A stretch of 64,000 nucleotides of DNA from an uncultured Methanosarcinales archaeon (GTDB taxonomy: Archaea > Nanobdellota > Nanobdellia > Woesearchaeales > GW2011-AR4): positions 6,364 through 70,363 of the forward strand of contig CAZYSP010000003.1 in the NCBI GenBank assembly GCA_964650285.1, written 5' to 3'. The notes under the pieces are model-generated. The model did no database searches. It was not told the origin of the DNA and saw only the letters and a program-made list of their open reading frames with translations. Below, in pieces: positions 7,518-59,181 of the stretch (within the stretch, counting starts at the first letter, position 1; each line of letters starts with the position of its first letter). The position numbers and the translations under genes are program-made.

Positions 7518-8543
7518 TTAGCTTATACTCTCCCTCATCCTCTCAACAAACTCCTTGAAATCCCTTTCTTTAACATTTGCGCCGCATGCAAATTCATGAC
7601 CGCCACCGTAGCCTTCAAGGCCGGCTAATGATTTTTCCAGGATAGGGGGTATTAAAGTGTTTTTGCTCCTTATACTCATCCTGACATCATCGTCTTTCTT
7701 TCTTCCTACAATAATTATTCTCTTAGGGAATTTGTATAATAACTCATTTGATAAATCGCTAGTAAAGCTCATCTTATCATCTGCATAAGTAAAAACAAGA
7801 AGCTTTTCCCTGCCAGCTTCTTTTAGTGCGCTTTTTAATAAGCTGTCATATAACGTATTTATCTTTTCATACCTCTGGAATATAAACTTGCCTTTTGAAG
7901 TTTCCTGGTTAAGAATTTCATAAGGGCTCTCTATTCTTGTCAGGACCTTCATGCTCTTCATAATACCGCTTGTTTTTCCTTTAAGAGAGAATGAAAAAAT
8001 CTTTATGAGTTTTCCTAATTTAGTTTTGAAATAAATCTCTTCTACTAATTTTTCATTGTTCATTAAATCAGGATAAGTTTTTTTAAATTCATCAACAAAA
8101 TCAGGCATATAATAATCAGCAACACATCCCAGCATTGCAATCCATAAATCCTGCTGGGTAACTTTATAGCACATGTATGTTGTAGGTATATTTTCATCTT
8201 TTTTAGCCAGCCTTGGGTTAAAATATTTTACATTATGCCTTTCATACGGCCCATGATGGTCTATCCATATCAATGGAACCTTGCATTCATCTATGAAATC
8301 CTGCTCAAGCTTTGCAACATCAAGAACAAAAACCTTGTCAGCATCATACTGCTCTATTTTCGGTACAGACCTTGCATCAAGTTTTGGGTGCGTTTTTACG
8401 ACAAAGCCATGGCCTTCTTTTTTATATCTATATAACAACAGAAATGCACACAACCCATCAGGATCATCATCAAAAAAGAATAATGGATTCTGGCAATTAT
8501 CTAATTCTTCTTTTATTTGTTGATATTGTTTTTCTGTTAGCAT
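7518..8543 (-). CDS. DHH/DHHA1 family phosphoesterase (NrnA/RecJ-like)
   Basis: DHH motif (LIWIDHHGP) and DHHA1 motif GGGHEFACGA. Confidence 0.65.
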   Translation of the reverse strand: MLTEKQYQQIKEELDNCQNPLFFFDDDPDGLCAFLLLYRYKKEGHGFVVKTHPKLDARSVPKIEQYDADKVFVLDVAKLEQDFIDECKVPLIWIDHHGPYERHNVKYFNPRLAKKDENIPTTYMCYKVTQQDLWIAMLGCVADYYMPDFVDEFKKTYPDLMNNEKLVEEIYFKTKLGKLIKIFSFSLKGKTSGIMKSMKVLTRIESPYEILNQETSKGKFIFQRYEKINTLYDSLLKSALKEAGREKLLVFTYADDKMSFTSDLSNELLYKFPKRIIIVGRKKDDDVRMSIRSKNTLIPPILEKSLAGLEGYGGGHEFACGANVKERDFKEFVERMRESIS

Positions 8544-8558
8544 TTTGGTTAAGGAAAT

Positions 8559-9833
8559 GTGCTTGTTTATAAATGTTGCATTACAGTTAATTCAAAACCT
8601 TTAAATTTAACCAAATTCTTTGCCATGATTATGCGCCTTCCAAAATCTAAGCATCCATTATTTAATTGTGGAAATCCTAATTGTGCTATATGCAATAAGG
8701 CTTATTCCAGGTTAAAAATACAGAATAAAATAATAAAAAAGGATTTTGAAAGCGAGGCTGTTGCTCCTTTTGTTGGAAGGTTTAACTATCCAAATATTAA
8801 TGTTGGAATTTTAGCTCCACCTAATGAGGATGAGAATTCATGGCTATATGATGCTCCAAAATACTGGGCTGTCCATAATTTTCAGATTCCAAAAATAATT
8901 GATTTTAGGTCTTCTTTAATAAACTCGAGCTTCAAAGCCGATATAAGACAAAGAAATAAATTTCTTGAACTAAGCCAGGAAACAGCAATGGCTTCTGATC
9001 CAACAGATATTGAAATCAATTTGCAAGAAAAACCAAGCTTTAGGTTAAATGTTGACAATTTTGCTGCTCCTACTGGCCCAAATGCAAAGTTAAAGCACGC
9101 AAAATTAACTTCCAATCCCAAAATCCATACTAAAGTGCAGAAGGTTTATTATGATACTGATTTAAAAGCAAACGACGCTATAATTTATTTATATAAAAAT
9201 AGGTTTGATGAAAATTTTCTGTCAAGAATTTTAAGTGTTGGTAATGTTGGTGTGGGCAAAAATAGAAAGCTTGTACCAACAAGATGGTCTATTACAGCAA
9301 CTGATGATTTACTGGGAAAACATTTGACCAATGAAATAAAAAAATATAATGAAACAAACTATACAGCTTTTTTTAGTTCTTATTTAGGAAATTATTACTT
9401 AATTTTGTGTTTTCCAGAAGTTTGGAGCTATGAATTATTTGAGATGCATGTTTCCAATCCAAATAATTTTATGACTGATTACGAGCCTTATGAAGGAAGA
9501 AAGTATTATGCAGAAGAAACAGCTGGTGGCTATTACACTGTAAGGCTTGCTATTCTGGAAAAATTGAATGAAATAAAAAAACAAAGTAGTATCTTGGCTT
9601 TGAGATTCATTACTGGTGATTATACATTGCCATTAGGTGTTTGGGTTACCAGGGAAAGTGCAAGAAAAGCCATGAGTGCAAAACCAATTCATTTTTCTTC
9701 AAAAGAGTTGATGTTAGAATATGCAAAGAAATTAGTTAAGAAAAAGTTTAATTTTGATTTGGATAATATATTAAAAAAGAGTGTTCTTTTAAGGAATATG
9801 AAAGAGCAGTCTAAATTAGTTAGATTTCTATAG
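8559..9833 (+). CDS. zinc-ribbon protein, possibly NreA-like DNA repair factor, with a C-terminal PIP-box-like motif
   Basis: N-terminal CGNPNC-AICNK zinc ribbon. Extreme C-terminus QSKLVRFL fits the PCNA-interacting Qxx[LIM]xxF[FYL] pattern. True start is probably an internal Met near 8625. Confidence 0.4.
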   Translation: MLVYKCCITVNSKPLNLTKFFAMIMRLPKSKHPLFNCGNPNCAICNKAYSRLKIQNKIIKKDFESEAVAPFVGRFNYPNINVGILAPPNEDENSWLYDAPKYWAVHNFQIPKIIDFRSSLINSSFKADIRQRNKFLELSQETAMASDPTDIEINLQEKPSFRLNVDNFAAPTGPNAKLKHAKLTSNPKIHTKVQKVYYDTDLKANDAIIYLYKNRFDENFLSRILSVGNVGVGKNRKLVPTRWSITATDDLLGKHLTNEIKKYNETNYTAFFSSYLGNYYLILCFPEVWSYELFEMHVSNPNNFMTDYEPYEGRKYYAEETAGGYYTVRLAILEKLNEIKKQSSILALRFITGDYTLPLGVWVTRESARKAMSAKPIHFSSKELMLEYAKKLVKKKFNFDLDNILKKSVLLRNMKEQSKLVRFL

Positions 9834-9926
9834 GTATTTAAGTTTCCAAAACATTTATATATATAAACATATATTAATATACGAAATAGTATACTGAGTA
9901 TAAGGAAAAAGAGGTTCAAGTTAGTT

Positions 9927-11336
9927 ATGACCACAACAGCTGACTTAAAGAAATTTGGTTTTGAGAAAGAAGAGATAGCAGAGCAGACAAGACAACAGTA
10001 TATTAAAACAGGCTTTCCAAAACCAGCAAGAAGATACAGATTACATTATGAGGGCTATAATATTTCTATTGAAGAACCGTATTTCTACATTCTGCATTAT
10101 TTAAGATATTTTTCTGGTTTTCCGCATATAGACAAGATATCAGATGTGTTTGCTGCTACTGAAAACAGCGCTTTTTTTGGAGCATCTCAGCAAAGACTAG
10201 GTTTGCAGCAAGACAAAGTAAGCCAGTTTTTAGCAACAATAGGGAAAATGGTTCGAGAGTTATTTCAGTTAGTAAGAGAATTAAGAATTCTGGATGAAAG
10301 GTTAAGCTATTATTATGACAGTTTTACCACAAGCAAAAGTTCTGAAAGTGCTGAAATTACATTAAAAGGCATATGGGTGGATTTAGTTGAGCAAGGAGCA
10401 AAAAATCCTGCATCTGTTTATGGTATGGCAAGAGAAGTGCAATTTACAACTTTGCCGGATTTGTTTTTCTCAACACACCCTAAAAAACAGGAGGATGTTG
10501 ATGAGGTTGTTGAAAGAGAAAGAGGAGCATTTAACCGCAAAGTAAGGGAAGTTCTTAAAAGAAAATTAAGGACATTCTTAGCTTGGAAAGAGCATACTTT
10601 TGAAGAGATGAAAAACAGGAGAAAATTCACATTAAAATTTTTAAGGCAGCATTATGAAGTCATAAGAATGTATATACACTGGGTAAGACCTTACTTAAGG
10701 AACATACAACGCTTGCAATTAGACCAGAGCAAGACAGAAACTCCGGATTTACTTGTTGCTTTTGAAAGCTCAATGATAGAAGTGGAACTACTAGCAAGAA
10801 TACCTGGAAAAGTAAGCCAGTGTTTGCTTATACATTATTTATTCAGAACAAGGCCTGAAATGTCTTATGTGCAGGAATATCAAAGAGGGCCATTACATCT
10901 TGGCAGGGTTGAAATAGATTTTAGGATGTATGCATGGACTGTTGAAGAAATTGAAAATTATAAAAGGATGAGGGAGCAAGAAGATTTCCAGCTTTTAGGA
11001 ATCATAGACACTTCTGTTAAAGCTGCAATGGAATCTTTAGGAGATGAATTAATGAGATACTTAAAAGAGGCTGGTGAAGAGTTTGGGCCAAAAACTGAGA
11101 AAAAAATTGAGAAAAAGCGTTCTTCATTTTTAAGTCCCTATACCTCAATTTTTAAGGGTTTTTCTGAACTTTTCAGTGCCCAAAAAACAAAAAAGCAGGC
11201 AAGGCAAAAAAAACCAAGCAAGACAGATGTTATGAAGTTGAGTTTGGCAAGAACAGAGGCTGAGAAAAAGGTAAAGGCAACTGCGTGGACAATTTATCAT
11301 CACTTCAAAAAACACCACCACATGCTAAACTGGTAA
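9927..11336 (+). CDS. hypothetical protein (469 aa), compositionally atypical
   Basis: Long ORF. GC and amino-acid usage (R/Q/E/F/Y-rich) differ from the K/I/N-rich neighbours. No recognised motif. Confidence 0.5.
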   Translation: MTTTADLKKFGFEKEEIAEQTRQQYIKTGFPKPARRYRLHYEGYNISIEEPYFYILHYLRYFSGFPHIDKISDVFAATENSAFFGASQQRLGLQQDKVSQFLATIGKMVRELFQLVRELRILDERLSYYYDSFTTSKSSESAEITLKGIWVDLVEQGAKNPASVYGMAREVQFTTLPDLFFSTHPKKQEDVDEVVERERGAFNRKVREVLKRKLRTFLAWKEHTFEEMKNRRKFTLKFLRQHYEVIRMYIHWVRPYLRNIQRLQLDQSKTETPDLLVAFESSMIEVELLARIPGKVSQCLLIHYLFRTRPEMSYVQEYQRGPLHLGRVEIDFRMYAWTVEEIENYKRMREQEDFQLLGIIDTSVKAAMESLGDELMRYLKEAGEEFGPKTEKKIEKKRSSFLSPYTSIFKGFSELFSAQKTKKQARQKKPSKTDVMKLSLARTEAEKKVKATAWTIYHHFKKHHHMLNW

Positions 11337-11640
11337 AAATACAATAATAAAGAAAACAATGGAGTAAGAAATACAAAAACAATTATTTGATTAATATTAA
11401 TTTACAATTAAAATAAAAAACTCAATAAAAAAATAATTCCAATAAACAAATAAAAAACAAAAACAATCAATAGCGACGCAATGCAAAACAACGACGCAAA
11501 AATGCTTGTTTTTTTATTAATAATAAATTTTTCAATGAATAATGATATCAAGTGTAAAATAAAAAATAACTGAACAAATAATTGTGAATCATAAGATAAA
11601 AAATTAATGGAAAAATAAAAAATGATACACTGCGATTAAA

Positions 11641-13821
11641 ATGGACTTTGGAGACCTTAATTATGGACATCATCCAATGGTTGATTATTTCAATGCCATG
11701 GAACCGGAATCTTATGGCATGCAAGTAGCTAATAAACCTGATGTAAATTTAAGCGTGCAAGACATTGGAATGAGCGTTCCTATGGGAATTTCTGCTGCAA
11801 ATGTTGCTGGAATATATTCAAAAATAAGAATGGGTGCAGGTAAATTAGAAATACAATTCCCAGGCTATAGGATAGGGAACAGAAACCAGCAGACACCTGA
11901 GATGTTAGGAGAGGACCAAAGACAGGCTTTAAGGGAAATGCAACTTGCTAATGAAGTAAGGTTTAACACACATGCCAGCTTTGGCCTTATGGGAATGATG
12001 GGCAGAGATGAGAGGGGAAATTTTTCAATTCACGGAGCATACCAGGACCTACTTGAATTGAAAAGATCAATTGATTTCCAGGCAGATATGGGTAGTGGTT
12101 CTGTTGTAATGCACTCTGGAGAATTTGAAAGACCAATGACAGATATGCACTTGGATGATGAAACACATCATTTAAACTTAGCCAGGGATGAGTCAGGAAG
12201 ATTAATGGTCAGAATGGGGCATACCCAGGAATTTGATGCAAAGTTTGACTTAATGGATGCAAGGACAAGCCAGAAAATGGAAACTGTGCAGAAAGATAGA
12301 TTAGTTTCATATCCTGATTGGTTAAAGTCAAAAGAAGATTACTCAGGAATTGATGTAGATGGAAAATCTACTACAATAAAAAAAGGTGATTTTATTGATT
12401 ATCAAGGCAGAAAAATATTGGACCCTTATGATGCTGTAAAAGGAAGAGTTCCAGAATATGATAAAGAAAGAGGAAGATTTTCTGTTAAACTAAAACATTT
12501 TGATTATTTTAAGAAAGAAGCAGAAAAATATAATGAATATCAAAGACAAAAACTAGGCAGAGAGCCAAATTATTATGAAAAAGTATATCCAGAAGAAATG
12601 TTCTTGCGAGCAACCTTAGAGACACAGGAAGGCCATGCAAGAGGTTGGGCACTGCAATATGGCCTAGAGACTCAAAAGCATATTGACCGGTTAAATAAAA
12701 TCGATAAAGCTACGGAATTCTACAAAAAATTAGATGCCTCAATACCGCCAGAAGAAAAATGGAAAATTATGAAAGAAGAGCGTGCTGAGTTCATTTATCC
12801 AGAGTTAATACCGTTAGACACAAAACATCCTTTAGAATTGCTACGGAAAATGAGAAGGACGGAAGAAAGAGGTCTTGAATTTGCAAGGCAATCTTCAGGA
12901 GCCCAAGAGCAGCAGGCAGTTGACACTAAGGAAACAAAAGAAAACCTAATAACACCAATAAAGAGGCTTGAGCAGCATGGTGTCAGGATGTATGCTGAAG
13001 CTGGACTACATGCTATGAATAAAACAAAGGATCCTAATAACCCGGTTGTCGTTGCTATTGAAAACCTGTTTCCGGAAAGGTTTGGAGGCCATTTAGAAGA
13101 ACTAAAATGGACTATCAAAAAATCCAGGGATAGAATGGTTAAGCTGCTTACAGAGCCTAAGATACAGCTAGGTGTTAGCAGAATGCCTACTGAGATGGAT
13201 GAAAAAAAGTTATCTGAAGCTACGATGCCTGGAAAAAAAGGAATGTTGCAGGAAAATCCTTTTTATATGGGGATAGGCAAAGAGGAAGCAGAAAAAATTG
13301 CTGAAAGGCACATTAAAGCTACCTTAGACACAGGACATTTGAATATGTGGAAGAAGTTCTGGCAGGACGACCCAAAACTTAACCGTGAGCAGAATGACGG
13401 AAAATTTAAACAATGGTACTTAAATCAGGTTGAGAGCCTGGCAAAAGAGAATATGGTTGGAAATGTGCATCTTGCTGATAATTTTGGATACCAGGACGAC
13501 CATCTAAGCCCTGGCCAGGGAAATGCGCCAATAAAAGAAGCTGTTGCAATACTAAAAAAACACGGCTATGACCGCGCATTAACTGTCGAGCCAGGTGCAG
13601 ATGCTGCAACTGATTTAAGCGATTTCCATGGATTAATGAAAACCTGGAAACTATTTGGCAGCCCTATGTATGGTGTGGGAATGGGAAGCCCGCAAGTACC
13701 TCAAAACTGGACAGATGTTCAATACTCATATTTCGGCCAGAACAGACCTCCTTATTTTGTATTCGGGCCTTATGCGCCAAGCAATGACTGGACATTATGG
13801 TCAGCAGTACCTATGGAGTAA
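11641..13821 (+). CDS. endonuclease IV (Nfo)/xylose-isomerase-like TIM-barrel protein with ~300 aa of insertions
   Basis: Nfo-like blocks: EVRFNTHASFG (~HAPYLINLG), VVMHSG (~NFHPGS), AIENLFPE (~VIENTAGQ), ATLDTGH (~CIDTCHAF), VHLADNFGYQDDHLSPGQGN (~[24 protein letters not shown]). GC is about 40-45%, above neighbours. Confidence 0.5.
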   Translation: MDFGDLNYGHHPMVDYFNAMEPESYGMQVANKPDVNLSVQDIGMSVPMGISAANVAGIYSKIRMGAGKLEIQFPGYRIGNRNQQTPEMLGEDQRQALREMQLANEVRFNTHASFGLMGMMGRDERGNFSIHGAYQDLLELKRSIDFQADMGSGSVVMHSGEFERPMTDMHLDDETHHLNLARDESGRLMVRMGHTQEFDAKFDLMDARTSQKMETVQKDRLVSYPDWLKSKEDYSGIDVDGKSTTIKKGDFIDYQGRKILDPYDAVKGRVPEYDKERGRFSVKLKHFDYFKKEAEKYNEYQRQKLGREPNYYEKVYPEEMFLRATLETQEGHARGWALQYGLETQKHIDRLNKIDKATEFYKKLDASIPPEEKWKIMKEERAEFIYPELIPLDTKHPLELLRKMRRTEERGLEFARQSSGAQEQQAVDTKETKENLITPIKRLEQHGVRMYAEAGLHAMNKTKDPNNPVVVAIENLFPERFGGHLEELKWTIKKSRDRMVKLLTEPKIQLGVSRMPTEMDEKKLSEATMPGKKGMLQENPFYMGIGKEEAEKIAERHIKATLDTGHLNMWKKFWQDDPKLNREQNDGKFKQWYLNQVESLAKENMVGNVHLADNFGYQDDHLSPGQGNAPIKEAVAILKKHGYDRALTVEPGADAATDLSDFHGLMKTWKLFGSPMYGVGMGSPQVPQNWTDVQYSYFGQNRPPYFVFGPYAPSNDWTLWSAVPME

Positions 13822-13935
13822 ATTCTTATAAAAATAAAATAATAATTAGTAATAAAAAATTTAAAAAATAGATAAAGTTTAAAAATAATCAGTATAATGA
13901 TTAGTATTAATTAGGGGTAAACATAAAAAAGAGGT

Positions 13936-15396
13936 GTGAATTTGGAAGCTGAAAAAAAACTTATAGATTCTTATGAGTTAAACGTAAATGATATAGTAAT
14001 TGATGTTTCTATTTATTCTGATGAAAATGAGCCTGTTCCTGTTTATAGCATCTCTATAACAAATATAAGCGAAACTACGAAGATAATTCTTGAGAAAATC
14101 AGGGAGGAGTTTGTATCCCAGGAAATGAAAACATTTGAACAAGGGTCGCTTGAATCATCAACTATACAAAAACAATTTAAAAAAGGTATATTGGTATTAT
14201 TGCGCAAGTACTTTCCAACTGCTAATAAAAAAACCATGGATATGCTTATAAATTATATTTTGCAACAGAACATAGGGCTCGGAAATATTGAAGTGCTGCT
14301 TAAAGATAAAAATCTCGAGGAGGTTGCAATCAATAATGCAAATGAGCCAATCTGGATCTACCATAGGAAATATGGCTGGCTTAAAACAAATATAATGATC
14401 CCTAATGAAAGCAGAATAAGATATTACTCAACAGTTATAGGGAGAGATGTAGGCAAAGAAATAACTACATTAAATCCTTTGATGGATGCTCATCTAAAGA
14501 CAGGCGACAGGGTAAATTCAACTTTAAGTCCGATATCCTCAAAAGGGAATACACTAACAATAAGAAAGTTTGCGGTAAAACCCTGGACAATAACAGACTT
14601 CATCAAGGAAAAAACCATCTCGTATGAAGCTGCTGCTCTTTTATGGATGGCTGTTCAAAATGAGCTTTCTGTAATCATAACAGGAGGAACAGCTTCTGGT
14701 AAAACTTCTATGCTAAATGTTGTTGCAAATTTCTTCCCTCCAAATCAAAGAATACTGTCTCTGGAGGATACTAGGGAGCTAATGCTTCCTAAGATTCTTC
14801 ATTGGGTTCCTCTTGAAACAAGATTACCAAATCCAGAAGGCAAAGGAGGAATAACAATGCTTGACTTAATAGTAAACTCATTGAGAATGAGACCTGACAG
14901 GATTTTGGTAGGGGAAATTAGAAGAAAAAGGGAAGCTGAAGTTATTTTTGAGGCAATGCATACGGGTCATAGTGTTTATGGAACTTTGCACGCAAATAAT
15001 GTAAGAGAAACCATAAACAGACTAACACAACCACCAATAGGATTGTCAAAGCAGATTCTTTCAGCTTTATCATTAATAGTGGTTCAGCACATAAATAGGA
15101 GAAATGGCAGAAGGAGGACATTGCAGATAGGGGAGGTAATGTACAATGGTGATGCAAAGCCAATTATGCAACTCAATATTATGAAGGATACGCTTGAAAA
15201 GGTTAACGATCCGACTACAATTTTTGAAACACTAAATCTTTATACAGGACTTTCAAAAGGAGACATTGAGAAGGATATTAACGAAAAAGTCGATATTTTA
15301 AAATGGATGGTAAAGAATAATATAACCGACATCAACAAGATAGGAATGATTATGTCTAAACATTACAGGAAAAAACCTTTTAAACATATGGTCTAA
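13936..15396 (+). CDS. archaeal type IV pilus/archaellum assembly ATPase (FlaI/PilB/TadA family)
   Basis: Walker A TGGTASGKTS. Collinear with secretion NTPases. GTG start preceded by AGAGGTG. Confidence 0.8.
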   Translation: MNLEAEKKLIDSYELNVNDIVIDVSIYSDENEPVPVYSISITNISETTKIILEKIREEFVSQEMKTFEQGSLESSTIQKQFKKGILVLLRKYFPTANKKTMDMLINYILQQNIGLGNIEVLLKDKNLEEVAINNANEPIWIYHRKYGWLKTNIMIPNESRIRYYSTVIGRDVGKEITTLNPLMDAHLKTGDRVNSTLSPISSKGNTLTIRKFAVKPWTITDFIKEKTISYEAAALLWMAVQNELSVIITGGTASGKTSMLNVVANFFPPNQRILSLEDTRELMLPKILHWVPLETRLPNPEGKGGITMLDLIVNSLRMRPDRILVGEIRRKREAEVIFEAMHTGHSVYGTLHANNVRETINRLTQPPIGLSKQILSALSLIVVQHINRRNGRRRTLQIGEVMYNGDAKPIMQLNIMKDTLEKVNDPTTIFETLNLYTGLSKGDIEKDINEKVDILKWMVKNNITDINKIGMIMSKHYRKKPFKHMV

Positions 15397-15398
15397 AG

Positions 15399-16223
15399 AT
15401 GAAAATAGCCATAAGCAAGCTGGTGCAGAGGATAAGTTCATTCTTTCCAAATCTTAAGAAGGAAATCAGGATTGCTCATATAAAAACAACCCCCCAGGAA
15501 TTTATTTATAAAAATTTGAAATTCTCTTTACCATTTTCATTAGGATTGACTATTCTTTTTTTTTTCGTAGCGGACAAAGCAGAACTTCCCTTGATTTTAA
15601 TTCCAGTTGCTTTTATTATCCTCTTTATCCTGGTATTTAATTTTGGGTTCTTAAAACTTAAAGCGAAAATAATCCGAAGACAAAAAGAAATTGATCGCGA
15701 GGTTTTATTTGTAGGGCAGTACCTGCTTATTAAGCTTTATTCTGGCAGACCATTGCTTAATGCTTTAATTGATACAACCAAAAGTTATGGAGTCGCAGCA
15801 AAATACATTGAAGAGATTGTCAATGATATTGATACTGGAAGTTCTTTGGAAAAGGCATTGGAAAATGCCATGACTTACTCCCCATCAGGAAAGTTCAGGA
15901 AAATATTATTTCATATAAATAATGCATTGAGACTTGGAATAGATGTTAGTAAGCCGTTAAGTGCTGTTTTGGATGAGATAACAAAGGAACAGGAGATTGA
16001 GGTCGAAAGGTATGGTAAAAAACTAAACACTATTGTCATTTTTTACATGCTTGCTGCTGTAGTTATACCATCAATTGGTATGACTCTGTTTATTGTTTTA
16101 TCAAGCTTCATCAACTTTACTGTAAGCATAAATTATTTTTTAGTTGTTATGCTGTTTATGATTATAATACAATTCTTGTTTATATCTGTATTTAAGACAA
16201 TAAGACCAACTGTAAACTTATGA
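15399..16223 (+). CDS. pilus assembly membrane platform protein, FlaJ/TadB-like half
   Basis: Type II secretion system F-like domain followed by transmembrane helices. Starts 3 bp after the ATPase stop. Confidence 0.6.
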   Translation: MKIAISKLVQRISSFFPNLKKEIRIAHIKTTPQEFIYKNLKFSLPFSLGLTILFFFVADKAELPLILIPVAFIILFILVFNFGFLKLKAKIIRRQKEIDREVLFVGQYLLIKLYSGRPLLNALIDTTKSYGVAAKYIEEIVNDIDTGSSLEKALENAMTYSPSGKFRKILFHINNALRLGIDVSKPLSAVLDEITKEQEIEVERYGKKLNTIVIFYMLAAVVIPSIGMTLFIVLSSFINFTVSINYFLVVMLFMIIIQFLFISVFKTIRPTVNL

Positions 16224-16251
16224 TGCATAGTAGCATGATTAATCAACAAAC

Positions 16252-17280
16252 ATGGCATTCAGAATTATATTTTTGGAGGAATTTGGCAAAGCATTTGTAC
16301 CTAAACGAGCAATTCCGCATTTGAGGCTGTTTTTGCTTAAAGCGGGCATTTCTTATGTCCCTTATAAATTCTTTGGTGTATTATTTTATCTTACAGCACT
16401 CATAACTGCAATTATTTACCTATTTTTTGTATATCCATTTCTTTTACAATACTCCCAATTAGTCTTGTTAGTTGCATCTGCAATATTCTGGTTTATAATC
16501 CAGATTTCATTAGCAACTTTTTTCATTTTGCTGGTTTATTTTTATGTAGATCTGCGTATATATCGAAGAACAAAGAAAATGGAAGAGGCGCTTCCGGATT
16601 TTTTACAGGTAGTTGCCTCTAACTTAAAAGGTGGCTTATCATTCGAGAAAGCTCTGCTAGGGGCCATTAAACCAAGATTTACAATCTTGGCCAATGAAAT
16701 GGCTGAGGTATCAAAAAAAGTAATGACTGGCCACGATGTTAGTATTGCATTATACGAATTAGGACAAAAATATGACAGTCCTATGTTAAAGAGGTCGATA
16801 GACTTAATGGTGGGTGAGCTTGAAAGCGGAGGGCAAATAGCCAATCTAATAGACAAAATAGTTCAGCGTATCAAAGAAACCAAAGTTTTGAAGGAGGAAA
16901 TATCTGCTTCGGCTGTAGCTTATATGATTTTTATGGCAGCAATAGTAATTTTTATTGCTCCTTTGCTGTTTGCCTTATCCTATAATCTTTTAATAGTTAT
17001 TCTTAGCTTTATATCCAAGCTGTCAGTTGCAACAGCTAGAGCAGGAACTTTGCCTTTTAGTGTTAGTGGAGTGGCTATAGAACCTGACAATTTTAAATAC
17101 TTTTCAATAGCAGCTTTAGCAGTAATTTCATTTTTTTCTTCCCTTATTGTCTCTATTGTAGAAAAAGGCAACATTAAAAGTGGTCTAAAGTACATTCCAA
17201 TCTTTTTGATTGGCTCTTTAGCTTTTTATTTTATATTTATGAAAGTTTTAAGTTTTGTATTCTCCGGACTTACATTTTAA
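16252..17280 (+). CDS. pilus assembly membrane platform protein, FlaJ/TadC-like half
   Basis: Second T2SS-F-like domain (VVASNLKGGLSFEKALLGA...) flanked by transmembrane segments. Together with the previous ORF it forms a split FlaJ. Confidence 0.6.
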   Translation: MAFRIIFLEEFGKAFVPKRAIPHLRLFLLKAGISYVPYKFFGVLFYLTALITAIIYLFFVYPFLLQYSQLVLLVASAIFWFIIQISLATFFILLVYFYVDLRIYRRTKKMEEALPDFLQVVASNLKGGLSFEKALLGAIKPRFTILANEMAEVSKKVMTGHDVSIALYELGQKYDSPMLKRSIDLMVGELESGGQIANLIDKIVQRIKETKVLKEEISASAVAYMIFMAAIVIFIAPLLFALSYNLLIVILSFISKLSVATARAGTLPFSVSGVAIEPDNFKYFSIAALAVISFFSSLIVSIVEKGNIKSGLKYIPIFLIGSLAFYFIFMKVLSFVFSGLTF

Positions 17281-17287
17281 AGAAATA

Positions 17288-17408
17288 TCCCCACCGCCGG
17301 ATTTGAACCAGCAACCTTTCGGTAACGGCTGAGTGTTTTTCATTCACAGCAAAATGCTTTGTCAAACACTTTCTACAGCCGAACGCTCTGCGGTTGAGCT
17401 AGATGGGG
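17288..17408 (-). tRNA. tRNA-Tyr(GUA) with 49-nt canonical (37/38) intron
   Basis: Minus strand: CCCCATC-TA-GCTC-AACCGCA-GAGC-G-TTCGG-CTGTAG[intron]A-CCGAA-AGGTT-GCTGG-TTCAAAT-CCGGC-GGTGGGG-A. C1:G72 is the archaeal/eukaryal Tyr identity pair. Confidence 0.65.
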
Positions 17409-17429
17409 GCATATAAAGAAATATATTAT

Positions 17430-17912
17430 TCATTTAAAAACCTTACTACAAATAAAGACCCAATCTTTTTTCCCATCAATTATTTTTCTAATATTAAAGT
17501 TTTCATTGATTTTTCTTTTAATTGAATCAAATAATACGCTCTTTTTCAAAATGCTAAATGCAAAATCTTTTTTTCCAACTCTTTTTATTTCTTTTATGCT
17601 TTTTTCTATATTATCGAAATTATGCATAGAGGTGACTGAAATGATTTTATCAAAAATGTTGTCCTTGAAAGGTATGTTTTCTGCTTTTGCTTGTATTTTT
17701 TGATTATTGCTATTTTGTTGTAAAAGTTCTATTGATGAGTCTATGCCAATAATATTACAATTAAAGTCTAAAAGGCCCGTACCGCATCCGACATCCAGCA
17801 GTAAATCAGTATTTTTTATATCAAGATTTTCTTTTATTAGTTTATGCTTTATTTTCTGTTCTCCTCCATAGAGTTCATTGTATCCTTTTGCTGTTAATTT
17901 GTAAAAATCCAT
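17430..17912 (-). CDS. small class I SAM-dependent methyltransferase
   Basis: Motif I LLDVGCGTGLL. 160 aa. Confidence 0.65.
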   Translation of the reverse strand: MDFYKLTAKGYNELYGGEQKIKHKLIKENLDIKNTDLLLDVGCGTGLLDFNCNIIGIDSSIELLQQNSNNQKIQAKAENIPFKDNIFDKIISVTSMHNFDNIEKSIKEIKRVGKKDFAFSILKKSVLFDSIKRKINENFNIRKIIDGKKDWVFICSKVFK

Positions 17913-40899: not shown

Positions 40900-42615
40900 T
40901 CATTTCTCATGTCTTGGATGTTCATGACCTGCCTCTTTTCTCTTTCTTAGGTGTTCAATATGAGCAATCTTTTCTTTCAGAAATTTATTAAGATTTAATC
41001 CGTGCTCTTCAATCATTGTGGATACATGGTGCCCGCCTAAAAAATGAGGCATAAGCACATAAGTTGCGCCTGCATCATACAACTTCATTGCTTCATCAAT
41101 CTGATGAGAAACAACTGTTATAATTGCTTTTTTATTGGATTCCCTGACCTTGTTAATCAATAAAAGATTTGTATCTAAGTTATGTATTGTTGAGGCAACC
41201 ATTTTTATTTTTGAAAAGTTTAACTCATTTAGCAATTCAGAATCGCTTGCATCGCCGTACTTGCAATCAAAGCCCCCTTTTGCTAATTTTGTTATTGTTT
41301 CCGGATTATAATCTACAACAAGAAACTTCTTTTTTATTTTTTTAAAAGACTCTAGGATATCATAGCCAATTCTGTCATACCCAAAAAGAATAATATCGTA
41401 AGTTCCATCTTTATGGTGTTTATGTTCATCGACTTTTTCACCTTTTCTTTCAAATATTCCCAGATACCTTGATAAATGGGGGTATATCTTATTTGCATAA
41501 AGTATAAGGTAAGTAGAGCCAGCAATAGTTATTAAACCAATAATAGTCACGAGAGACAAGATATCAGTTGTCAGATGCCCTACTTTAACGCCTAATGCAA
41601 CAAGAATTAAAGAAAATTCACTTATCTGGGCTACGGTTAATCCTGCTAAAAAACTATTTCTTTTAGTATAGCCAAGCAAACCCATTAATACCATTACTAT
41701 TAGCGGATTCCCGATAAGTATAAATATTGAAAATATTATGATAGGAATTATATACTGGCTTATATTTGTAAATATCATTTGGGAACCCAGTAATATGAAA
41801 AACAAAATAATAAAAAAATCACGTAATGGTTTCATTTTAGAACCAATCTCATAGTGGTATGGGGATAAAGACAGAGTAATACCTGCTAATAGCGCTCCTG
41901 CTTCTATTGAAAAATTTAAATAATAAAAAAGAGAAGCTATTGCAAAACACCAGCCAATTGAAAATAATAATAAAAATTCTTGGGACTTAGCAATAGCCTT
42001 AGTTAGTTGCGGAAAAATATAAACACTTATTAGAAATAATAAAAGTAATACGCCCACACCTTTTAAAACAGTTTCAAGTGCTAAAGTAGTAAAATTTATT
42101 CCGGCTGGGATTGATGAGATGACCATCAAGATAACTATTACAATTAAATCCTGAATAATTAAAAAACCGATAGCAATCCTTCCATACAGGGTTTCTAGGT
42201 CTCCCTTATCTGATAAAAGTTTCATGATTATTATAGTGCTGCTGAATGTCAGAGCAATAGCAATATATATTGAAACTATCGTAGAAAAACCTAATAATTG
42301 ACCTATGAAAAACCCAACTAAAGAAGTGAATATAACCTGACCAACTCCAGTAACTAAAGAAACCTTGCCAACATCCTTTATTATTTTTGGATTCAAGTTT
42401 AATCCAACCATAAATAAAAGCAACACTATGCCTATCTGTGCAAAAGTTGCAATAGCATCTGTAGATTTAACTATATTGAGAAAATAAGGGCTTACTATAA
42501 TACCAGTTAGAATATAACCTATGATCAGTGGCTGTCTTAACAATCGCACTATTCCTGCAACAACAACTGCAATAAGGATAACAATGCTTAATTCAATAAA
42601 TATGCTTATAGCCAT
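40900..42615 (-). CDS. CPA2 monovalent cation:proton antiporter with C-terminal RCK/TrkA-N domain (KefB/KefC-like)
   Basis: About 12 transmembrane helices, then a Rossmann-like ILFGYDRIGYDI...VV domain. Confidence 0.8.
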   Translation of the reverse strand: MAISIFIELSIVILIAVVVAGIVRLLRQPLIIGYILTGIIVSPYFLNIVKSTDAIATFAQIGIVLLLFMVGLNLNPKIIKDVGKVSLVTGVGQVIFTSLVGFFIGQLLGFSTIVSIYIAIALTFSSTIIIMKLLSDKGDLETLYGRIAIGFLIIQDLIVIVILMVISSIPAGINFTTLALETVLKGVGVLLLLFLISVYIFPQLTKAIAKSQEFLLLFSIGWCFAIASLFYYLNFSIEAGALLAGITLSLSPYHYEIGSKMKPLRDFFIILFFILLGSQMIFTNISQYIIPIIIFSIFILIGNPLIVMVLMGLLGYTKRNSFLAGLTVAQISEFSLILVALGVKVGHLTTDILSLVTIIGLITIAGSTYLILYANKIYPHLSRYLGIFERKGEKVDEHKHHKDGTYDIILFGYDRIGYDILESFKKIKKKFLVVDYNPETITKLAKGGFDCKYGDASDSELLNELNFSKIKMVASTIHNLDTNLLLINKVRESNKKAIITVVSHQIDEAMKLYDAGATYVLMPHFLGGHHVSTMIEEHGLNLNKFLKEKIAHIEHLRKRKEAGHEHPRHEK

Positions 42616-42696
42616 CTTTTACCTCTTTGTTAATATATCCCAATGCATAATATTTAATTTTTTCGGAAGGGTTTTTCATATTTATGGCACCTTTTA

Positions 42697-42843
42697 TTAC
42701 AATATTTCTATAGTTCCGGTTTCTTTTGGTTCTTTTTTGTTATTTTCAATTAATTTCAGCTCTATTATGTCGTTTTGCTTTAGTTGTTCAATTAATTCGT
42801 CTTTTGTTATTCTCATCAATAATGCCAAATCCTCTAGTTTCAT
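42697..42843 (-). CDS. 48-aa hypothetical protein overlapping the AbrB-like ORF by ATGA
   Basis: MKLEDLALLMRITKDELIEQLKQNDIIELKLIENNKKEPKETGTIEIL. Its start overlaps the upstream stop in ATGA (translational coupling). Confidence 0.3.
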   Translation of the reverse strand: MKLEDLALLMRITKDELIEQLKQNDIIELKLIENNKKEPKETGTIEIL

Positions 42844-42992
42844 TTATTCACCTTCTTTATTTGGAGTATAAAGCCATCTTTGTGCTTCTTGAATTCAACT
42901 TCTGTACCTTTTTCCAGGCCTTCATACTCTGCAAGAATCTTAGGAATAGTTAATACAAGCTGTCCTGATGCAAGTTTTTGCACTTTTACCAT
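42840..42992 (-). CDS. SpoVT/AbrB (MazE/VapB-like) swapped-hairpin DNA-binding protein, 50 aa (not in ORF track)
   Basis: MVKVQKLASGQLVLTIPKILAEYEGLEKGTEVEFKKHKDGFILQIKKVNK matches the AbrB/MazE pattern. Confidence 0.5.
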   Translation of the reverse strand: MVKVQKLASGQLVLTIPKILAEYEGLEKGTEVEFKKHKDGFILQIKKVNK

Positions 42993-43175
42993 TTGAGACT
43001 ATATAATAGTATTTTTAATAGTTTTTTTATTGTTTTTTATATTATTTAGAATAATAGTATTTAAATGTTTTGGTTATAAATGAAAATAATGGTGTATGTT
43101 AAGAGTATTTTGTTAGATAGGTATTGTCCTAAAAAGAATTATTTTCCTGAACAAAATATCAAAAAATAGAATAAT

Positions 43176-43976
43176 TTATTTACTCAAAACACTTTTAATC
43201 TCCCAAACCATATCAGAAGCAAGGTAAGTAAATCCTTTTTTCTTTTTCAGCAGTATATCTCCAATTAGTCCATTGAAATAATCTGCATTTACTGCAGATT
43301 GTAATAAAGATAAACCCTGTCCTAAGAATCCAACACATAAGCCAGCTAAAACATCACCAGTTCCGGCTTTTGACATGCCAGGATTGCCTGTTTTGTTATA
43401 ATATGTTTTAGAAGTTGATATTATCTGATCAATAGGGCCTTTTAATATTAAGATGTTATTTTTTAGATGTTTTCTAAAATTGTTTTTGTTTAATTTTGAA
43501 TTTTTCAATAAAATGTTAAATTCTCCATGATGGGGCGTAAGTATTGAATTTTTAACGTCCTGTAGCCTTATATGCTTTAATGCGTCCGCATCAATAACCA
43601 ATGGTTTTCTTGTTTCTTTAACATATTTTTTTACAAAAGATTTAGCATGTATTCCTATTCCGTTGCCAATCAAAATAGAATCAAAGTTTTTTTCGAATTT
43701 TAAAACGTCTTTTGCATGAGAAACGCAAAAATCATCCCCTTTGTATTTTTTAACAACTAAATCTGCTGCTAAACAATTAATAGCCCATCCTACTTTTTCA
43801 GGTGCAGCAACAGTAACCCAATCTACTCCAGACCTTAAAGCAGCTAAACCAGCAAGAGCAACTGCCCCAACATAGTCTTTAGAGCCTCCAATAACTAAAA
43901 CGCGGCCATTGTCTCCCTTTTTGCTGCCCTTTTTTCTTTTTGGCAGCTTAATGTCCTTTTTTGATATGTAGTGCAT
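43176..43976 (-). CDS. nnrD: ADP-dependent NAD(P)H-hydrate dehydratase (YjeF C-terminal domain)
   Basis: GGSKDYVGA...GTGDVLAG carbohydrate-kinase-fold motifs. Confidence 0.75.
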   Translation of the reverse strand: MHYISKKDIKLPKRKKGSKKGDNGRVLVIGGSKDYVGAVALAGLAALRSGVDWVTVAAPEKVGWAINCLAADLVVKKYKGDDFCVSHAKDVLKFEKNFDSILIGNGIGIHAKSFVKKYVKETRKPLVIDADALKHIRLQDVKNSILTPHHGEFNILLKNSKLNKNNFRKHLKNNILILKGPIDQIISTSKTYYNKTGNPGMSKAGTGDVLAGLCVGFLGQGLSLLQSAVNADYFNGLIGDILLKKKKGFTYLASDMVWEIKSVLSK

Positions 43977-44095
43977 TTTATTATTAATTATTTTTTTGAT
44001 TTTTATTATTTTTTGTTGGTTTTTTTATTATTGAAATTATTATTTTTATAAATAAATTTTCATTGTATTATTTTTTATTAAACTTTTTTATTGTT

Positions 44096-44695
44096 TTATT
44101 TCTTAATCCCAATATCCGCAACAATAGTTTTACCTTTATAACTTTCTAAACCCTTTTTTATGTCGTGCATTGTTATTATTAAATCCGGATCAAAAAATAC
44201 ATTTGCCTTTTCCCCGGTATCAGGATTTATTCCTGAAGGAACATCAACAGAAACTTTATAGGCGTCTGATTTTCCGATATTTTTTATTAGTGTAACTAAA
44301 GGATCTTTTATTTCTCCTTCTATGCCTGTGCCAAAAACAGCATCTATAATAACATCATAATCAGAAAAATCAACTGCTTCCATTGATAGCATTTGAAGTT
44401 TTTCATTATTTTCTATTTTTTTGAAATTCGCTAATGCTTCTTTTGTTAATTTTGTTTCATCACCTACAAACAAAACATCAACTTCTGCATCATTGCATAG
44501 GTATCTTGCAGCAACAAAACCATCACCGCCATTATTTCCATGATATGCAACAATAAGAATTCTTTTATCCTTTAAATCAAATTTTTCTTTTAAAACATTG
44601 TATATAGCTTTGCCTGCATTTTCCATTAAGACAATTTTTGGAATGTCGCAATTGTCTTCCAAAGACCTCATTTCCTGGGTTGTTATCATTCTCAT
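44096..44695 (-). CDS. nnrE: NAD(P)H-hydrate epimerase (YjeF N-terminal domain)
   Basis: GNNGGDG motif. Encoded separately, directly upstream of the dehydratase. Confidence 0.75.
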   Translation of the reverse strand: MRMITTQEMRSLEDNCDIPKIVLMENAGKAIYNVLKEKFDLKDKRILIVAYHGNNGGDGFVAARYLCNDAEVDVLFVGDETKLTKEALANFKKIENNEKLQMLSMEAVDFSDYDVIIDAVFGTGIEGEIKDPLVTLIKNIGKSDAYKVSVDVPSGINPDTGEKANVFFDPDLIITMHDIKKGLESYKGKTIVADIGIKK

Positions 44696-58739: not shown

Positions 58740-58793
58740 GATTTGAATAAGGATGGGTTTATTTAAAAAGTTTGCTTTAAAAATAAATAGAAA

Positions 58794-58868
58794 TGCTCCC
58801 AACGGGATTCGAACCCGTGTCTCGGCCTCGAGAAGGCCGAATGATTGGCCGGGCTACACCATGGGAGC
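58794..58868 (-). tRNA. tRNA-Glu(CUC)
   Basis: GCTCCCA-TG-GTGT-AGCCCGGCCAA-TCAT-T-CGGCC-TTCTCGA-GGCCG-AGAC-ACGGG-TTCGAAT-CCCGT-TGGGAGC-A. 75 nt, no intron. Confidence 0.8.
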
Positions 58869-58883
58869 ATAGAAAATAAAAAA

Positions 58884-59097: not shown

Positions 59098-59181
59098 TGC
59101 GGCAGCCGAGATTCGAACTCGGGTCCCAGCCTTTTTACAATGTTTGGCAAGGCCGGATCTTAACCACTGGACTACTGCCGC
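59098..59181 (-). tRNA. tRNA-Gly(GCC) with 12-nt canonical intron
   Basis: GCGGCAG-TA-GTCC-AGTGGTTA-AGAT-C-CGGCC-TTGCCA[12 nt]A-GGCTG-GGAC-CCGAG-TTCGAAT-CTCGG-CTGCCGC-A. Confidence 0.7.

What the first reader, a model, noticed from the sequence alone, without database searches (positions are those of the whole stretch)
9927..13821. Two compositionally foreign genes: an unknown 469-aa protein and an endonuclease IV-family nuclease with ~300 aa of insertions
Both ORFs have visibly higher GC (roughly 38-45% in sampled stretches, against ~30% in neighbours) and R/Q/E/M/G-rich usage in place of K/I/N-rich usage, suggesting horizontal acquisition. The 726-aa protein aligns block by block with E. 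coli Nfo across all metal-ligand regions, including DTGH and HLADN...DDH...GQGN. About 300 residues are inserted between the HSG and IEN blocks and ~80 more before DTGH. Upstream lie a DHH/DHHA1 phosphoesterase and a zinc-ribbon protein ending in a PIP-box-like QSKLVRFL (NreA-like). This may be a DNA-repair or DNA-processing module. A nuclease paired with an unknown partner could also be a defence-type cassette.
Basis: partly seen in the sequence, partly recalled or inferred. Interest (0 to 1): 0.6.

Follow-up and report, generated by a model that had tools for sequence, protein, structure and literature searches.

The report
Conserved Woesearchaeota gene pair, not foreign
These two genes are not imported DNA but an old, vertically inherited gene pair of Woesearchaeota-type (DPANN) archaea: an unknown protein plus a metal enzyme with an endonuclease-IV-like active site and a large extra domain, whose function nobody has described.

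Summary
Both ORFs are real and sit at the stated coordinates: A is 9927-11336 (469 aa) and B is 11641-13821 (726 aa).

The "compositionally foreign, so horizontally acquired" reading fails.
- A has 35.7% GC (z 0.7) and B has 39.4% (z 2.0).
- GC3 and synonymous codon usage are ordinary. The shift lies in amino-acid content.
- Only ribosomal protein S12 has higher GC in the window.

The pair is inherited vertically.
- Relatives of A occur in at least 271 GTDB species genomes, all named Woesearchaeota or Nanoarchaeota.
- B lies directly downstream of A in 51 of 56 loci with enough sequence.
- The pairing persists at 34-43% A identity.

- No endonuclease IV model, hhalign or BLAST links it to Nfo.
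- All nine Nfo metal-ligand positions nevertheless carry the same residue, in the same order, at the strand ends. They are invariant even in 31%-identical relatives.
- About 280 aa are inserted between strands β3 and β4, and about 55 aa between β4 and β5. B is not a fusion artefact.

A matches no family or full-length fold. It contains only a KA1-like α+β module.

Best guess: a two-subunit metal-dependent phosphodiesterase acting on nucleic acids. The function is untested. No defence or viral signal was found.

The parts
9854..9915 (+). Likely promoter and leader of gene A: an AT-rich TATA-like TTTATATATATAA (9854-9866) and a GAGGT ribosome-binding-like motif (9911-9915) ahead of the ATG at 9927
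   Evidence: Read directly from the sequence. Function is inferred; there are no transcript data.
9927..11336 (+). Gene A, 469 aa, an uncharacterised protein family. Predicted structure: N-terminal beta-sheet plus helix, two very long helices (85-133 and 204-265), a second beta-sheet (283-337), helices, then a basic low-confidence linker (386-431, pI 10.5) and a conserved C-terminal helix ending YHHFKKHHxMLNW
11337..11640 (+). A-B spacer, 304 bp, AT-rich. In other genomes its length ranges from overlapping genes (in remote relative L090) to about 1.4 kb as a rule, and is 50 bp or less in about 20 loci
   Evidence: Sequence. Spacer lengths. Overlapping stop and start in L090. No Rfam family matched.
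11641..13821 (+). Gene B, 726 aa: a xylose-isomerase-like TIM-barrel metalloenzyme with conserved N- and C-terminal extensions
11806..12135 (+). B barrel, N-terminal half (about aa 56-165), with invariant E70, H111 (codon 11971-11973) and H158 (codon 12112-12114) at the ends of predicted strands
   Evidence: Invariant columns. Strands 108-111 and 153-158 in the AF2 model. Motif comparison with Nfo H69 and H109.
12136..13035 (+). Roughly 300-aa stretch of B (about aa 166-465, a net insertion of about 280 aa relative to Nfo spacing) between strands beta3 and beta4. It has a small beta domain (about 222-285) and long helices (287-305, 317-367, 397-434, 439-461). It is less conserved than the barrel and shorter in remote relatives
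   Evidence: AF2 pLDDT is about 85-94 over most of 220-380 and lower beyond. Per-region identity is 52-83% against 68-100% for the barrel halves. Remote B proteins of 560-582 aa lack most of the beta domain.
13036..13620 (+). B barrel, C-terminal half (about aa 466-660), with invariant E474 (13060-13062), D563 (13327-13329), H566 (13336-13338), H610 (13468-13470), D619 (13495-13497), H621 (13501-13503) and E650 (13588-13590). It also has about 55 extra residues between beta4 and beta5
   Evidence: The only stretch with significant sequence similarity to a solved structure is 607-652, matching MJ1311 (3wqo), E 1e-5.
13621..13818 (+). Conserved aromatic, Gly/Pro-rich C-terminal tail of B, ending YAPSNDWTLWSAVP(M/L)E. 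It is predicted with low confidence and may be a docking segment
   Evidence: Invariant residues. The terminal S721, P724 and E726 are kept in remote relatives. pLDDT is below 35. A docking role is inference.
12300..13870 (+). Divergent-allele tract covering the 3' two-thirds of B. It is 72-95% identical to a sister contig that is about 99.5% identical elsewhere
   Evidence: Sliding identity. Three allele classes among P0001-P0005, with dS 0.41 and dN/dS 0.17.

Best explanation
Shown:
- Genes A and B form a vertically inherited two-gene module found throughout Woesearchaeota/Nanoarchaeota (DPANN) archaea.
- The module stays together when the chromosome rearranges. In this window's lineage it moved as a unit away from its ancestral neighbours, which now sit at 40909-44689 on the - strand.
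- Its raised GC and R/Q/E/M/G-rich composition reflect strong constraint on the proteins, not foreign DNA.
- B is a xylose-isomerase-like TIM barrel.

Inferred from invariant residues:
- B's active site carries the full nine-residue ligand set of the trinuclear metal centre of endonuclease IV: H111, H158, E474, D563, H566, H610, D619, H621 and E650.
- The roughly 280-aa beta-plus-helical insertion leaves the barrel just after strand beta3. That is the catalytic face, so it probably forms a lid or substrate-binding arm.

Inferred, untested:
- B is a metal-dependent phosphodiesterase acting on a nucleic-acid substrate, by Nfo-like cleavage at an abasic site or cleaning of blocked 3' ends.
- A is its non-catalytic partner. 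A has two alpha+beta modules, a long helical hairpin and a strongly basic tail, which may hold the substrate or the enzyme.
- The recurrent neighbours are a YhbY/CRM RNA-binding protein upstream and a Pol-beta-type nucleotidyltransferase downstream. These make RNA or DNA end processing the most coherent theme.
For: Vertical inheritance and pairing:
- Relatives of A occur in at least 271 species genomes, all named Woesearchaeota, Nanoarchaeota or Nanoarchaeia, apart from placeholder labels.
- B lies immediately downstream on the same strand in 51 of 56 loci with at least 3.5 kb of room. The spacer is 50 bp or less in about 20 loci, and the genes overlap in L090.
- The pair is kept at 43% and 34% A identity, with B at 31-32%.
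- Synteny with the window holds at about 99% and 80% identity.
- The ancestral neighbour block YjeF_N, carbohydrate kinase, AbrB-like and Na/H exchanger lies upstream of A in 43 loci. In this window it sits 27 kb away.

Composition.

Enzyme:
- The nine candidate ligands are invariant in 32 close relatives and 2 remote ones.
- Each sits at the C-terminal end of consecutive predicted strands, in local motifs like those of Nfo.
- The closest solved sequence, MJ1311, is listed as the predicted M. jannaschii endonuclease IV homologue by Kiyonari et al. 2009 (PMC2770678).

Nucleic-acid theme:
- The A tail (386-469) has 21 K/R against 6 D/E.
- A CRM/YhbY gene lies 19-114 bp upstream of A in 22 of 74 loci (482 bp in one more) and in remote L089.
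- A 265-273-aa NTP_transf_2/Polbeta gene lies downstream in 11 loci, and directly after B in L089 and L090.
Against: - No statistical link to Nfo. Five NCBIfam deoxyribonuclease IV models miss B and miss the insert-less core. hhalign probability is 0.2-0.3%. tblastn finds nothing.
- The barrel part of the AF2 model has low confidence (mean pLDDT 60.6), so the geometry of the metal site was not verified.
- PDB depositors call MJ1311 a D-tagatose 3-epimerase-like protein.
- No evidence of physical contact between A and B. No A-B fusions were seen.
- A-like genes occur without an adjacent B in L087 and L088, and in 5 of 56 loci.
- Neighbour genes may reflect inherited synteny rather than shared function.
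- No expression, metal or activity data exist.
Confidence: 0.5

Rival explanations
1. B is a sugar or ketose isomerase, epimerase or dehydratase-type metabolic enzyme, the usual chemistry of this TIM-barrel superfamily. A is an accessory, scaffolding or regulatory subunit, or an unrelated neighbour.
For: - The only HMM hits beyond Pfam are fructoselysine 3-epimerase and hydroxypyruvate isomerase.
- Public annotation reads 'sugar phosphate isomerase/epimerase'.
- The four core ligands (E, D, H, E) are shared with sugar enzymes.
Against: - The HMM hits are far below cut-off (20 bits against 305) and cover only 44 residues.
- Five further invariant His/Asp residues at the positions of Nfo H69, H109, H182, D229 and H231 are not needed for mononuclear sugar chemistry.
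- D-tagatose 3-epimerase lacks the D-x-H segment where it aligns with B.
- No sugar-metabolism genes are conserved around the pair.
Confidence: 0.2
2. A and B are merely syntenic housekeeping neighbours with independent functions. The pairing is inherited gene order, not a functional unit.
For: - Many unrelated genes (Na/H exchanger, YjeF_N, carbohydrate kinase) are also syntenic with A across dozens of loci.
- In the window the spacer is 304 bp with room for its own promoter.
- A-like genes occur without B in L087, L088 and 5 of 56 loci.
Against: - A-B adjacency (51 of 56) outlasts every other adjacency.
- It survives the relocation seen in this window and survives to 34% identity, with overlapping or near-abutting reading frames in about 20 loci.
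Confidence: 0.12
3. B is a multinuclear non-haem iron oxidase of the DUF692 (MbnB/TglH) kind. It would work as a heterodimer with a dedicated partner (A) on a peptide or protein substrate.
For: - DUF692 proteins are in the same Pfam clan as endonuclease IV and are genetically tied to a partner gene (PMC2954202).
- That DUF692 ligands resemble the Nfo ligands is from my own recollection and was not tested here.
Against: - No Pfam DUF692 or DUF2063 hit for B or A.
- No precursor-peptide-like small gene is consistently adjacent.
Confidence: 0.06
4. One reading: a horizontally acquired DNA-repair or anti-phage defence cassette, consisting of a nuclease plus an unknown partner.
For: - B has the second-highest GC in the window.
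- Part of B (12300-13870) is a divergent allele relative to a near-identical contig, so DNA exchange between related strains does occur here.
- NreA and a DHH protein lie upstream.
Against: - GC3 and codon usage are ordinary.
- The pair has a lineage-wide, single-locus, syntenic distribution.
- No PADLOC or PHROG hits. None of 2.9 million viral contigs encodes a relative.
- NreA adjacency is limited to a few close relatives: 4 to 7 of about 80 loci, depending on the method.
- The divergent tract is under purifying selection and comes from a close relative, not from another phylum.
Confidence: 0.03

Closest known systems
Endonuclease IV (Nfo; E. coli 1QTW, archaeal PfuAPE/PF0258 group)
   Same: - All nine metal-ligand positions carry the identical residue type in the same order, in similar local motifs (IEN, DTxH, HLxD, DxH, GxGN, xE). 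They sit at the ends of the corresponding strands.
   Different: - No hit to any of five Nfo family HMMs, and no significant hhalign or BLAST similarity.
- 726 aa against about 285 aa.
- A roughly 280-aa insertion after beta3, about 55 aa after beta4, and conserved N- and C-terminal extensions.
- An almost obligatory partner gene A.
MJ1311 of Methanocaldococcus jannaschii (PDB 3WQO, 'D-tagatose 3-epimerase-like protein')
   Same: - The only solved protein with significant sequence similarity (E 1e-5 with the family profile; residues 607-652, the HxxDN...DDEH...GEGN...E block).
- Listed as the predicted archaeal Nfo homologue in PMC2770678.
   Different: - 293 aa with no insertions.
- Similarity is confined to strands beta6-beta7.
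- Its own function is unsettled.
Ketose 3-epimerases and related sugar isomerases (for example 8XIV, 5ZFS, 7DZ2)
   Different: - 11-16% identity.
- They lack the D-x-H segment in the aligned block.
- B has five extra invariant His/Asp residues.
- NCBIfam scores are far below cut-off.
DUF692 enzyme plus partner pairs (MbnB-MbnC, TglH-TglI)
   Different: - No DUF692 or DUF2063 HMM match.
- Lower structural scores.
- No adjacent precursor peptide.
KA1 (kinase-associated 1) domain: Chk1, MARK and SAD kinases, METTL16 and TUT1
   Different: - 4-18% identity.
- It covers only a fifth of A.
- The fold is simple and common.
- No match was found to A's long helices or to its overall architecture.

Membership tests
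Xylose isomerase-like TIM barrel superfamily (Pfam PF01261 AP_endonuc_2) | Score above Pfam's gathering threshold | tested here: met
   46.9 bits against 31.1, E 3.8e-12, although only residues 551-652 are matched.
Xylose isomerase-like TIM barrel superfamily (Pfam PF01261 AP_endonuc_2) | TIM-barrel fold of this superfamily | tested here: met
   [not shown]
Endonuclease IV (Nfo) | Match to curated Nfo family models (TIGR00587, NF002196-NF002199) | tested here: not met
   No hit at E up to 10 for full-length B or for B with the insertion removed. E. coli Nfo scores 99-555 bits on the same models.
Endonuclease IV (Nfo) | Statistically supported alignment to a bona fide Nfo | tested here: not met
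   hhalign probability 0.2-0.3%. tblastn of Nfo against 0.99 Mb of window plus related loci finds nothing.
Endonuclease IV (Nfo) | Nine ligands of the trinuclear metal site (H69, H109, E145, D179, H182, H216, D229, H231, E261) | tested here: met
   The same residue types occur in the same order: H111, H158, E474, D563, H566, H610, D619, H621, E650. They are invariant in 32 close and 2 remote homologues and lie at the ends of predicted strands beta2-beta7. Caveat: the correspondence is by motif, not by a verified structural superposition.
Endonuclease IV (Nfo) | Compact single-domain architecture of about 250-300 aa | tested here: not met
   726 aa, with insertions of about 280 and about 55 aa plus terminal extensions.
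Endonuclease IV (Nfo) | AP-endonuclease and 3'-diesterase activity, with Zn content | not testable with these tools
   Needs biochemistry.
Ketose 3-epimerase / sugar phosphate isomerase families | Match to curated equivalog models | tested here: not met
   Best hits are fructoselysine 3-epimerase (20 bits against cut-off 305) and hydroxypyruvate isomerase (14 bits against 353).
DUF692 (MbnB/TglH) plus DUF2063-type partner | Pfam DUF692 match in B and a partner-family match in A | tested here: not met
   [not shown]
Known anti-phage defence systems (PADLOC-DB 2.0) | HMM match of either protein | tested here: not met
   No families at E up to 1. No relatives in IMG/VR.
NreA (upstream neighbour, 8559/8625-9833) | Nre_N and Nre_C domains with a C-terminal PIP-like motif | tested here: met
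   Nre_N E 9e-79 and Nre_C E 8e-29. NCBIfam NreA scores 278.6 bits, below the haloarchaeal equivalog cut-off of 700. The C-terminus reads QSKLVRFL.
KA1 domain (for part of A) | The beta-alpha-beta(4)-alpha fold | tested here: inconclusive
   [not shown]

The most novel reading that the evidence does not exclude
The A-B pair is a previously unrecognised, lineage-defining nucleic-acid end-processing complex of Woesearchaeota-type DPANN archaea. B would be an endonuclease-IV-derived trinuclear phosphodiesterase whose active site is capped by a 150-300-aa lid domain. It would be held by a dedicated scaffold protein of a new fold, ancestrally co-encoded with a YhbY/CRM RNA-binding protein and a Pol-beta-type nucleotidyltransferase. 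The system would heal and extend damaged RNA (or DNA) 3' ends.
Probability: 0.2. Interest if true: 0.7.

Novelty: new variant of a known kind. Interest (0 to 1): 0.45.

Why it matters
DPANN archaea have tiny genomes made largely of unannotated genes. A gene pair that is kept throughout a whole order-level lineage is a good candidate for core, lineage-specific biology. Its proteins are conserved about as well as the type IV secretion ATPase next door, and the pair stays together when the chromosome is rearranged.

If B is an Nfo-type phosphodiesterase with a new lid domain and an obligate partner, it would extend the known architectures of the endonuclease IV / xylose-isomerase barrel. It could also point to how these reduced organisms repair or process nucleic acids. 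Protein A would define a new family with more than 500 clusters at 50% identity.

The case also shows a practical point. In AT-rich genomes, a rise in GC confined to codon positions 1 and 2 marks protein constraint, not horizontal transfer.

Tried and rejected
- **Horizontal transfer or foreign composition:** rejected on GC3, synonymous codon usage, synteny and phyletic spread.
- **Spurious ORF fusion:** rejected. Full-length homologues cover 98-100% of B.
- **Defence system or viral origin:** no PADLOC, PHROG, BFVD or IMG/VR signal.
- **Extraordinary, actin-like conservation:** my first impression from 75-90% identities. It was tempered because neighbours in the same genomes are similar: T2SSE 81-86%, NreA 74-77%, against A 83-87% and B 76-78%.
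- **Membrane-targeting amphipathic C-terminal helix in A:** the hydrophobic moment is only 0.39 or less, so I dropped the idea.
- **Conserved RNA or small ORF in the A-B spacer:** the spacer length varies widely, from under 10 bp to more than 1 kb, and there is no Rfam hit.
- **Direct Nfo homology:** not supported by hhalign on the full family, by hhalign on an insert-less core alignment, or by tblastn.
- **Technical dead ends:**
  - The diverse A alignment was too variable for the search for related loci.
  - The third homologue search, run with a profile, returned only close relatives again.
  - The afdb50 fold library was unavailable.
  - Literature searches for Woesearchaeota with endonuclease IV, for MJ1311/3WQO and for DPANN TIM barrels found nothing specific.

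Full report
**1. What is there**

The window has two + strand ORFs exactly where the finding places them: A (9927-11336, 469 aa) and B (11641-13821, 726 aa), separated by a 304-bp AT-rich spacer. A TATA-like TTTATATATATAA and a GAGGT motif precede A.

Upstream are NreA and a DHH/DHHA1 protein. NreA carries Nre_N and Nre_C and ends in the PIP-like QSKLVRFL. By comparison with 401-403-aa homologues its true start is probably near 8625. Downstream are a T2SSE ATPase and two T2SSF membrane proteins.

**2. Is it compositionally foreign? No**

Statistics over 52 ORFs in the window:

| Measure | A | B |
|---|---|---|
| GC | 35.7% (z 0.69, rank 14) | 39.4% (z 2.0, rank 2) |
| GC3, z | 0.42 | 0.88 |
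| Synonymous codon usage against a resampling null, z | -0.14 (rank 43 of 52) | 0.48 (rank 37 of 52) |

- The mean ORF GC is 33.8% with sd 2.8.
- The excess lies at codon positions 1 and 2.
- What is real is the amino-acid shift. B has the lowest K/I/N/F/Y and the highest R/Q/E/M/G content in the window, and A is close behind.
- The only gene with higher GC than B is ribosomal protein S12. PRPP synthetase and ribosomal protein S7 follow.

In this AT-rich genome, raised GC therefore marks constrained proteins.

**3. Distribution and gene order**

- Both proteins have hundreds of homologues. Wherever a source names them, they come from Woesearchaeota or Nanoarchaeota MAGs.
- A GTDB scan found relatives of A in 271 species genomes.
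- In the 80 best loci, B follows A on the same strand in 51 of 56 cases with enough downstream sequence. In about 20 of them the spacer is 50 bp or less.
- A TARA contig about 99.5% identical to the window, and a genome at about 80%, keep NreA..A-B..T2SSE-T2SSF-T2SSF.
- In most other genomes the neighbours differ. The order is YjeF_N, carbohydrate kinase, an AbrB-like small gene, a Na+/H+ exchanger (upstream in 43 loci), often a YhbY/CRM RNA-binding gene 19-114 bp upstream of A (23 of 74 loci counting hits within 500 bp), then A-B. After B come a roughly 170-aa acidic coiled-coil protein (35 loci), a DOT1-like methyltransferase, DUF483 and a 265-aa Pol-beta-type nucleotidyltransferase.
- In this window that upstream block sits at 40909-44689 on the - strand. 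A-B was therefore relocated as a unit.
- Remote A homologues (43% and 34% identity) are still paired with AP_endonuc_2 proteins of 582 and 560 aa. In both, the nucleotidyltransferase follows directly. In one, YhbY lies upstream. In the other, the reading frames overlap.
- A-like genes without an adjacent B also exist.
- Conservation is strong but not exceptional. In the same genomes A is 83-87% identical and B 76-78%, against T2SSE 81-86% and NreA 74-77%.

**4. Protein B**

*Fold and family tests*

- Pfam matches AP_endonuc_2 only over residues 551-652.
- The sole significant PDB sequence match is MJ1311 (3WQO) over residues 607-652.
- Kiyonari et al. 2009 list MJ1311 as the predicted endonuclease IV homologue of M. 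jannaschii. The PDB entry calls it D-tagatose 3-epimerase-like.
- An AF2 model built from 32 close homologues is mediocre overall (pLDDT 60.6). It is confident for much of the insertion and poor for parts of the barrel.
- No Nfo family model matches B, with or without the insertion.
- hhalign against E. coli Nfo is insignificant and out of register in the N-terminal half.

*The nine ligand positions*

- Each of the nine Nfo ligand positions has an identical residue, in order, in a similar motif:

| Nfo | B |
|---|---|
| H69 | H111 |
| H109 | H158 |
| E145 | E474 |
| D179 | D563 |
| H182 | H566 |
| H216 | H610 |
| D229 | D619 |
| H231 | H621 |
| E261 | E650 |

- The strand-borne residues sit at the C-terminal ends of consecutive predicted strands.
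- All nine are invariant in 32 close homologues and in two relatives at 31-32% identity.
- D-tagatose 3-epimerase lacks the D-x-H element in the aligned block.

I therefore accept "Nfo-like metal site in a member of the same superfamily" and reject "member of the Nfo family".

*Insertions and tails*

- Relative to Nfo spacing, the insertions are about 280 aa (beta3 to beta4) and about 55 aa (beta4 to beta5).
- The large insertion is a small beta domain followed by long helices. It evolves faster than the barrel (52-83% against 68-100% identity) and is shorter in remote relatives.
- The N- and C-terminal tails are highly conserved but modelled with low confidence. This pattern is typical of segments that fold on a partner, which is an inference.

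**5. Protein A**

- No hit in Pfam, NCBIfam, PDB sequences, PADLOC or PHROGs, even with a diverse family profile.
- The family has 546 clusters at 50% identity.
- An AF2 model from a diverse alignment (pLDDT 73.5) shows an N-terminal sheet and helix, two very long helices, a second sheet, further helices, a low-confidence basic linker and a conserved C-terminal helix.
- The tail (386-469) has 21 K/R against 6 D/E, but it is not an amphipathic membrane helix.

**6. Interpretation**

Shown:
- A vertically inherited, lineage-wide gene pair.
- A TIM-barrel metalloenzyme with an Nfo-type ligand set and novel insertions.
- An unannotated partner family.

Inferred:
- The two proteins act together.
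- The chemistry is metal-dependent phosphodiester hydrolysis on a nucleic acid.
- The lid and protein A provide substrate handling.
- The YhbY and nucleotidyltransferase neighbours hint at RNA or DNA 3'-end processing.

Rivals are a sugar-isomerase-type enzyme, mere synteny, and a DUF692-like oxidase with a partner. A defence or HGT cassette is essentially excluded.

**7. A side observation bearing on "foreign"**

Against the near-identical TARA contig, only 12300-13870 (the 3' two-thirds of B) is divergent, at 72-95% nucleotide identity.
- Five near-identical strains carry three allele classes there, with identical N-terminal 215 residues.
- dS is 0.41 and dN/dS is 0.17.

This indicates homologous exchange of B alleles between related populations, or chimeric metagenome assembly across a conserved gene. 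It does not indicate cross-lineage acquisition.

**8. Verdict**

- The HGT and defence interpretation is not supported.
- The Nfo link holds at the level of active-site pattern and superfamily only.
- The pair is an uncharacterised, conserved DPANN module. It is moderately interesting, and its function is open.

Noticed in passing
window 12300-13870 (3' two-thirds of gene B), compared with L084: This is the only strongly divergent tract (72-95% nucleotide identity) between two contigs that are otherwise about 99.5% identical over 15.7 kb. Near-identical strains carry three allele classes. dS is 0.41 and dN/dS is 0.17. It is either recombination or balanced alleles in B, or a metagenome assembly chimera.
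   Followed up: partly
window 40909-44689 (- strand): The block YjeF_N, carbohydrate kinase, AbrB/MazE-like small ORF and Na+/H+ exchanger (TrkA_N) lies directly upstream of A in most related genomes. Here it sits 27 kb away and is followed by a metallophosphoesterase. A rearrangement in this lineage therefore separated it from A-B.
   Followed up: partly
L089 1071-6963, L090 2889-6772, and many GTDB loci (for example L049, L072): The A-B pair has two recurrent flanking genes. A YhbY/CRM RNA-binding gene lies just upstream in 23 of 74 loci. A 265-273-aa NTP_transf_2/Pol-beta-type nucleotidyltransferase lies downstream, directly adjacent in the most remote relatives. Both are absent from this window.
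   Followed up: partly
L087 (ENA contig NODE_165, 22.7% GC), 8001-9647 and 16803-17647: A distant A-family member (29% identity, 548 aa; NCBI names it Woesearchaeota) has no B nearby. It follows four unannotated genes, and the same contig encodes a full bacterial-type sigma-70 (regions 1.2-4). Either this archaeal lineage carries a sigma-70 gene or the contig is bacterial or misbinned.
   Followed up: no
window 8559-9833: The mechanical ORF for NreA starts at GTG 8559 (424 aa), but homologues are 401-403 aa. The real start is probably the ATG near 8625 (MIMRLPK...).
   Followed up: partly
Database labels of homologues: Some close homologues carry implausible taxonomic labels. One is 'Chloroflexota bacterium' on a 2-kb contig (P0122). 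Many 'uncultured Methanosarcinales archaeon' binchicken MAGs are syntenic with Woesearchaeota contigs. These look like misbinning or placeholder taxonomy.
   Followed up: no
window 13936-17280: A type IV pilus / archaellum-like assembly set (T2SSE ATPase plus two T2SSF membrane proteins) lies immediately downstream of B. It is syntenic only in close relatives (5-8 of about 80 loci) and is probably unrelated to A-B.
   Followed up: partly
window 58793-58869 and 59098-59181 (- strand): Rfam finds two tRNA genes, but ARAGORN reports only the first (tRNA-Glu CTC). The second, at 84 nt, may have an intron or a long variable arm.
   Followed up: no
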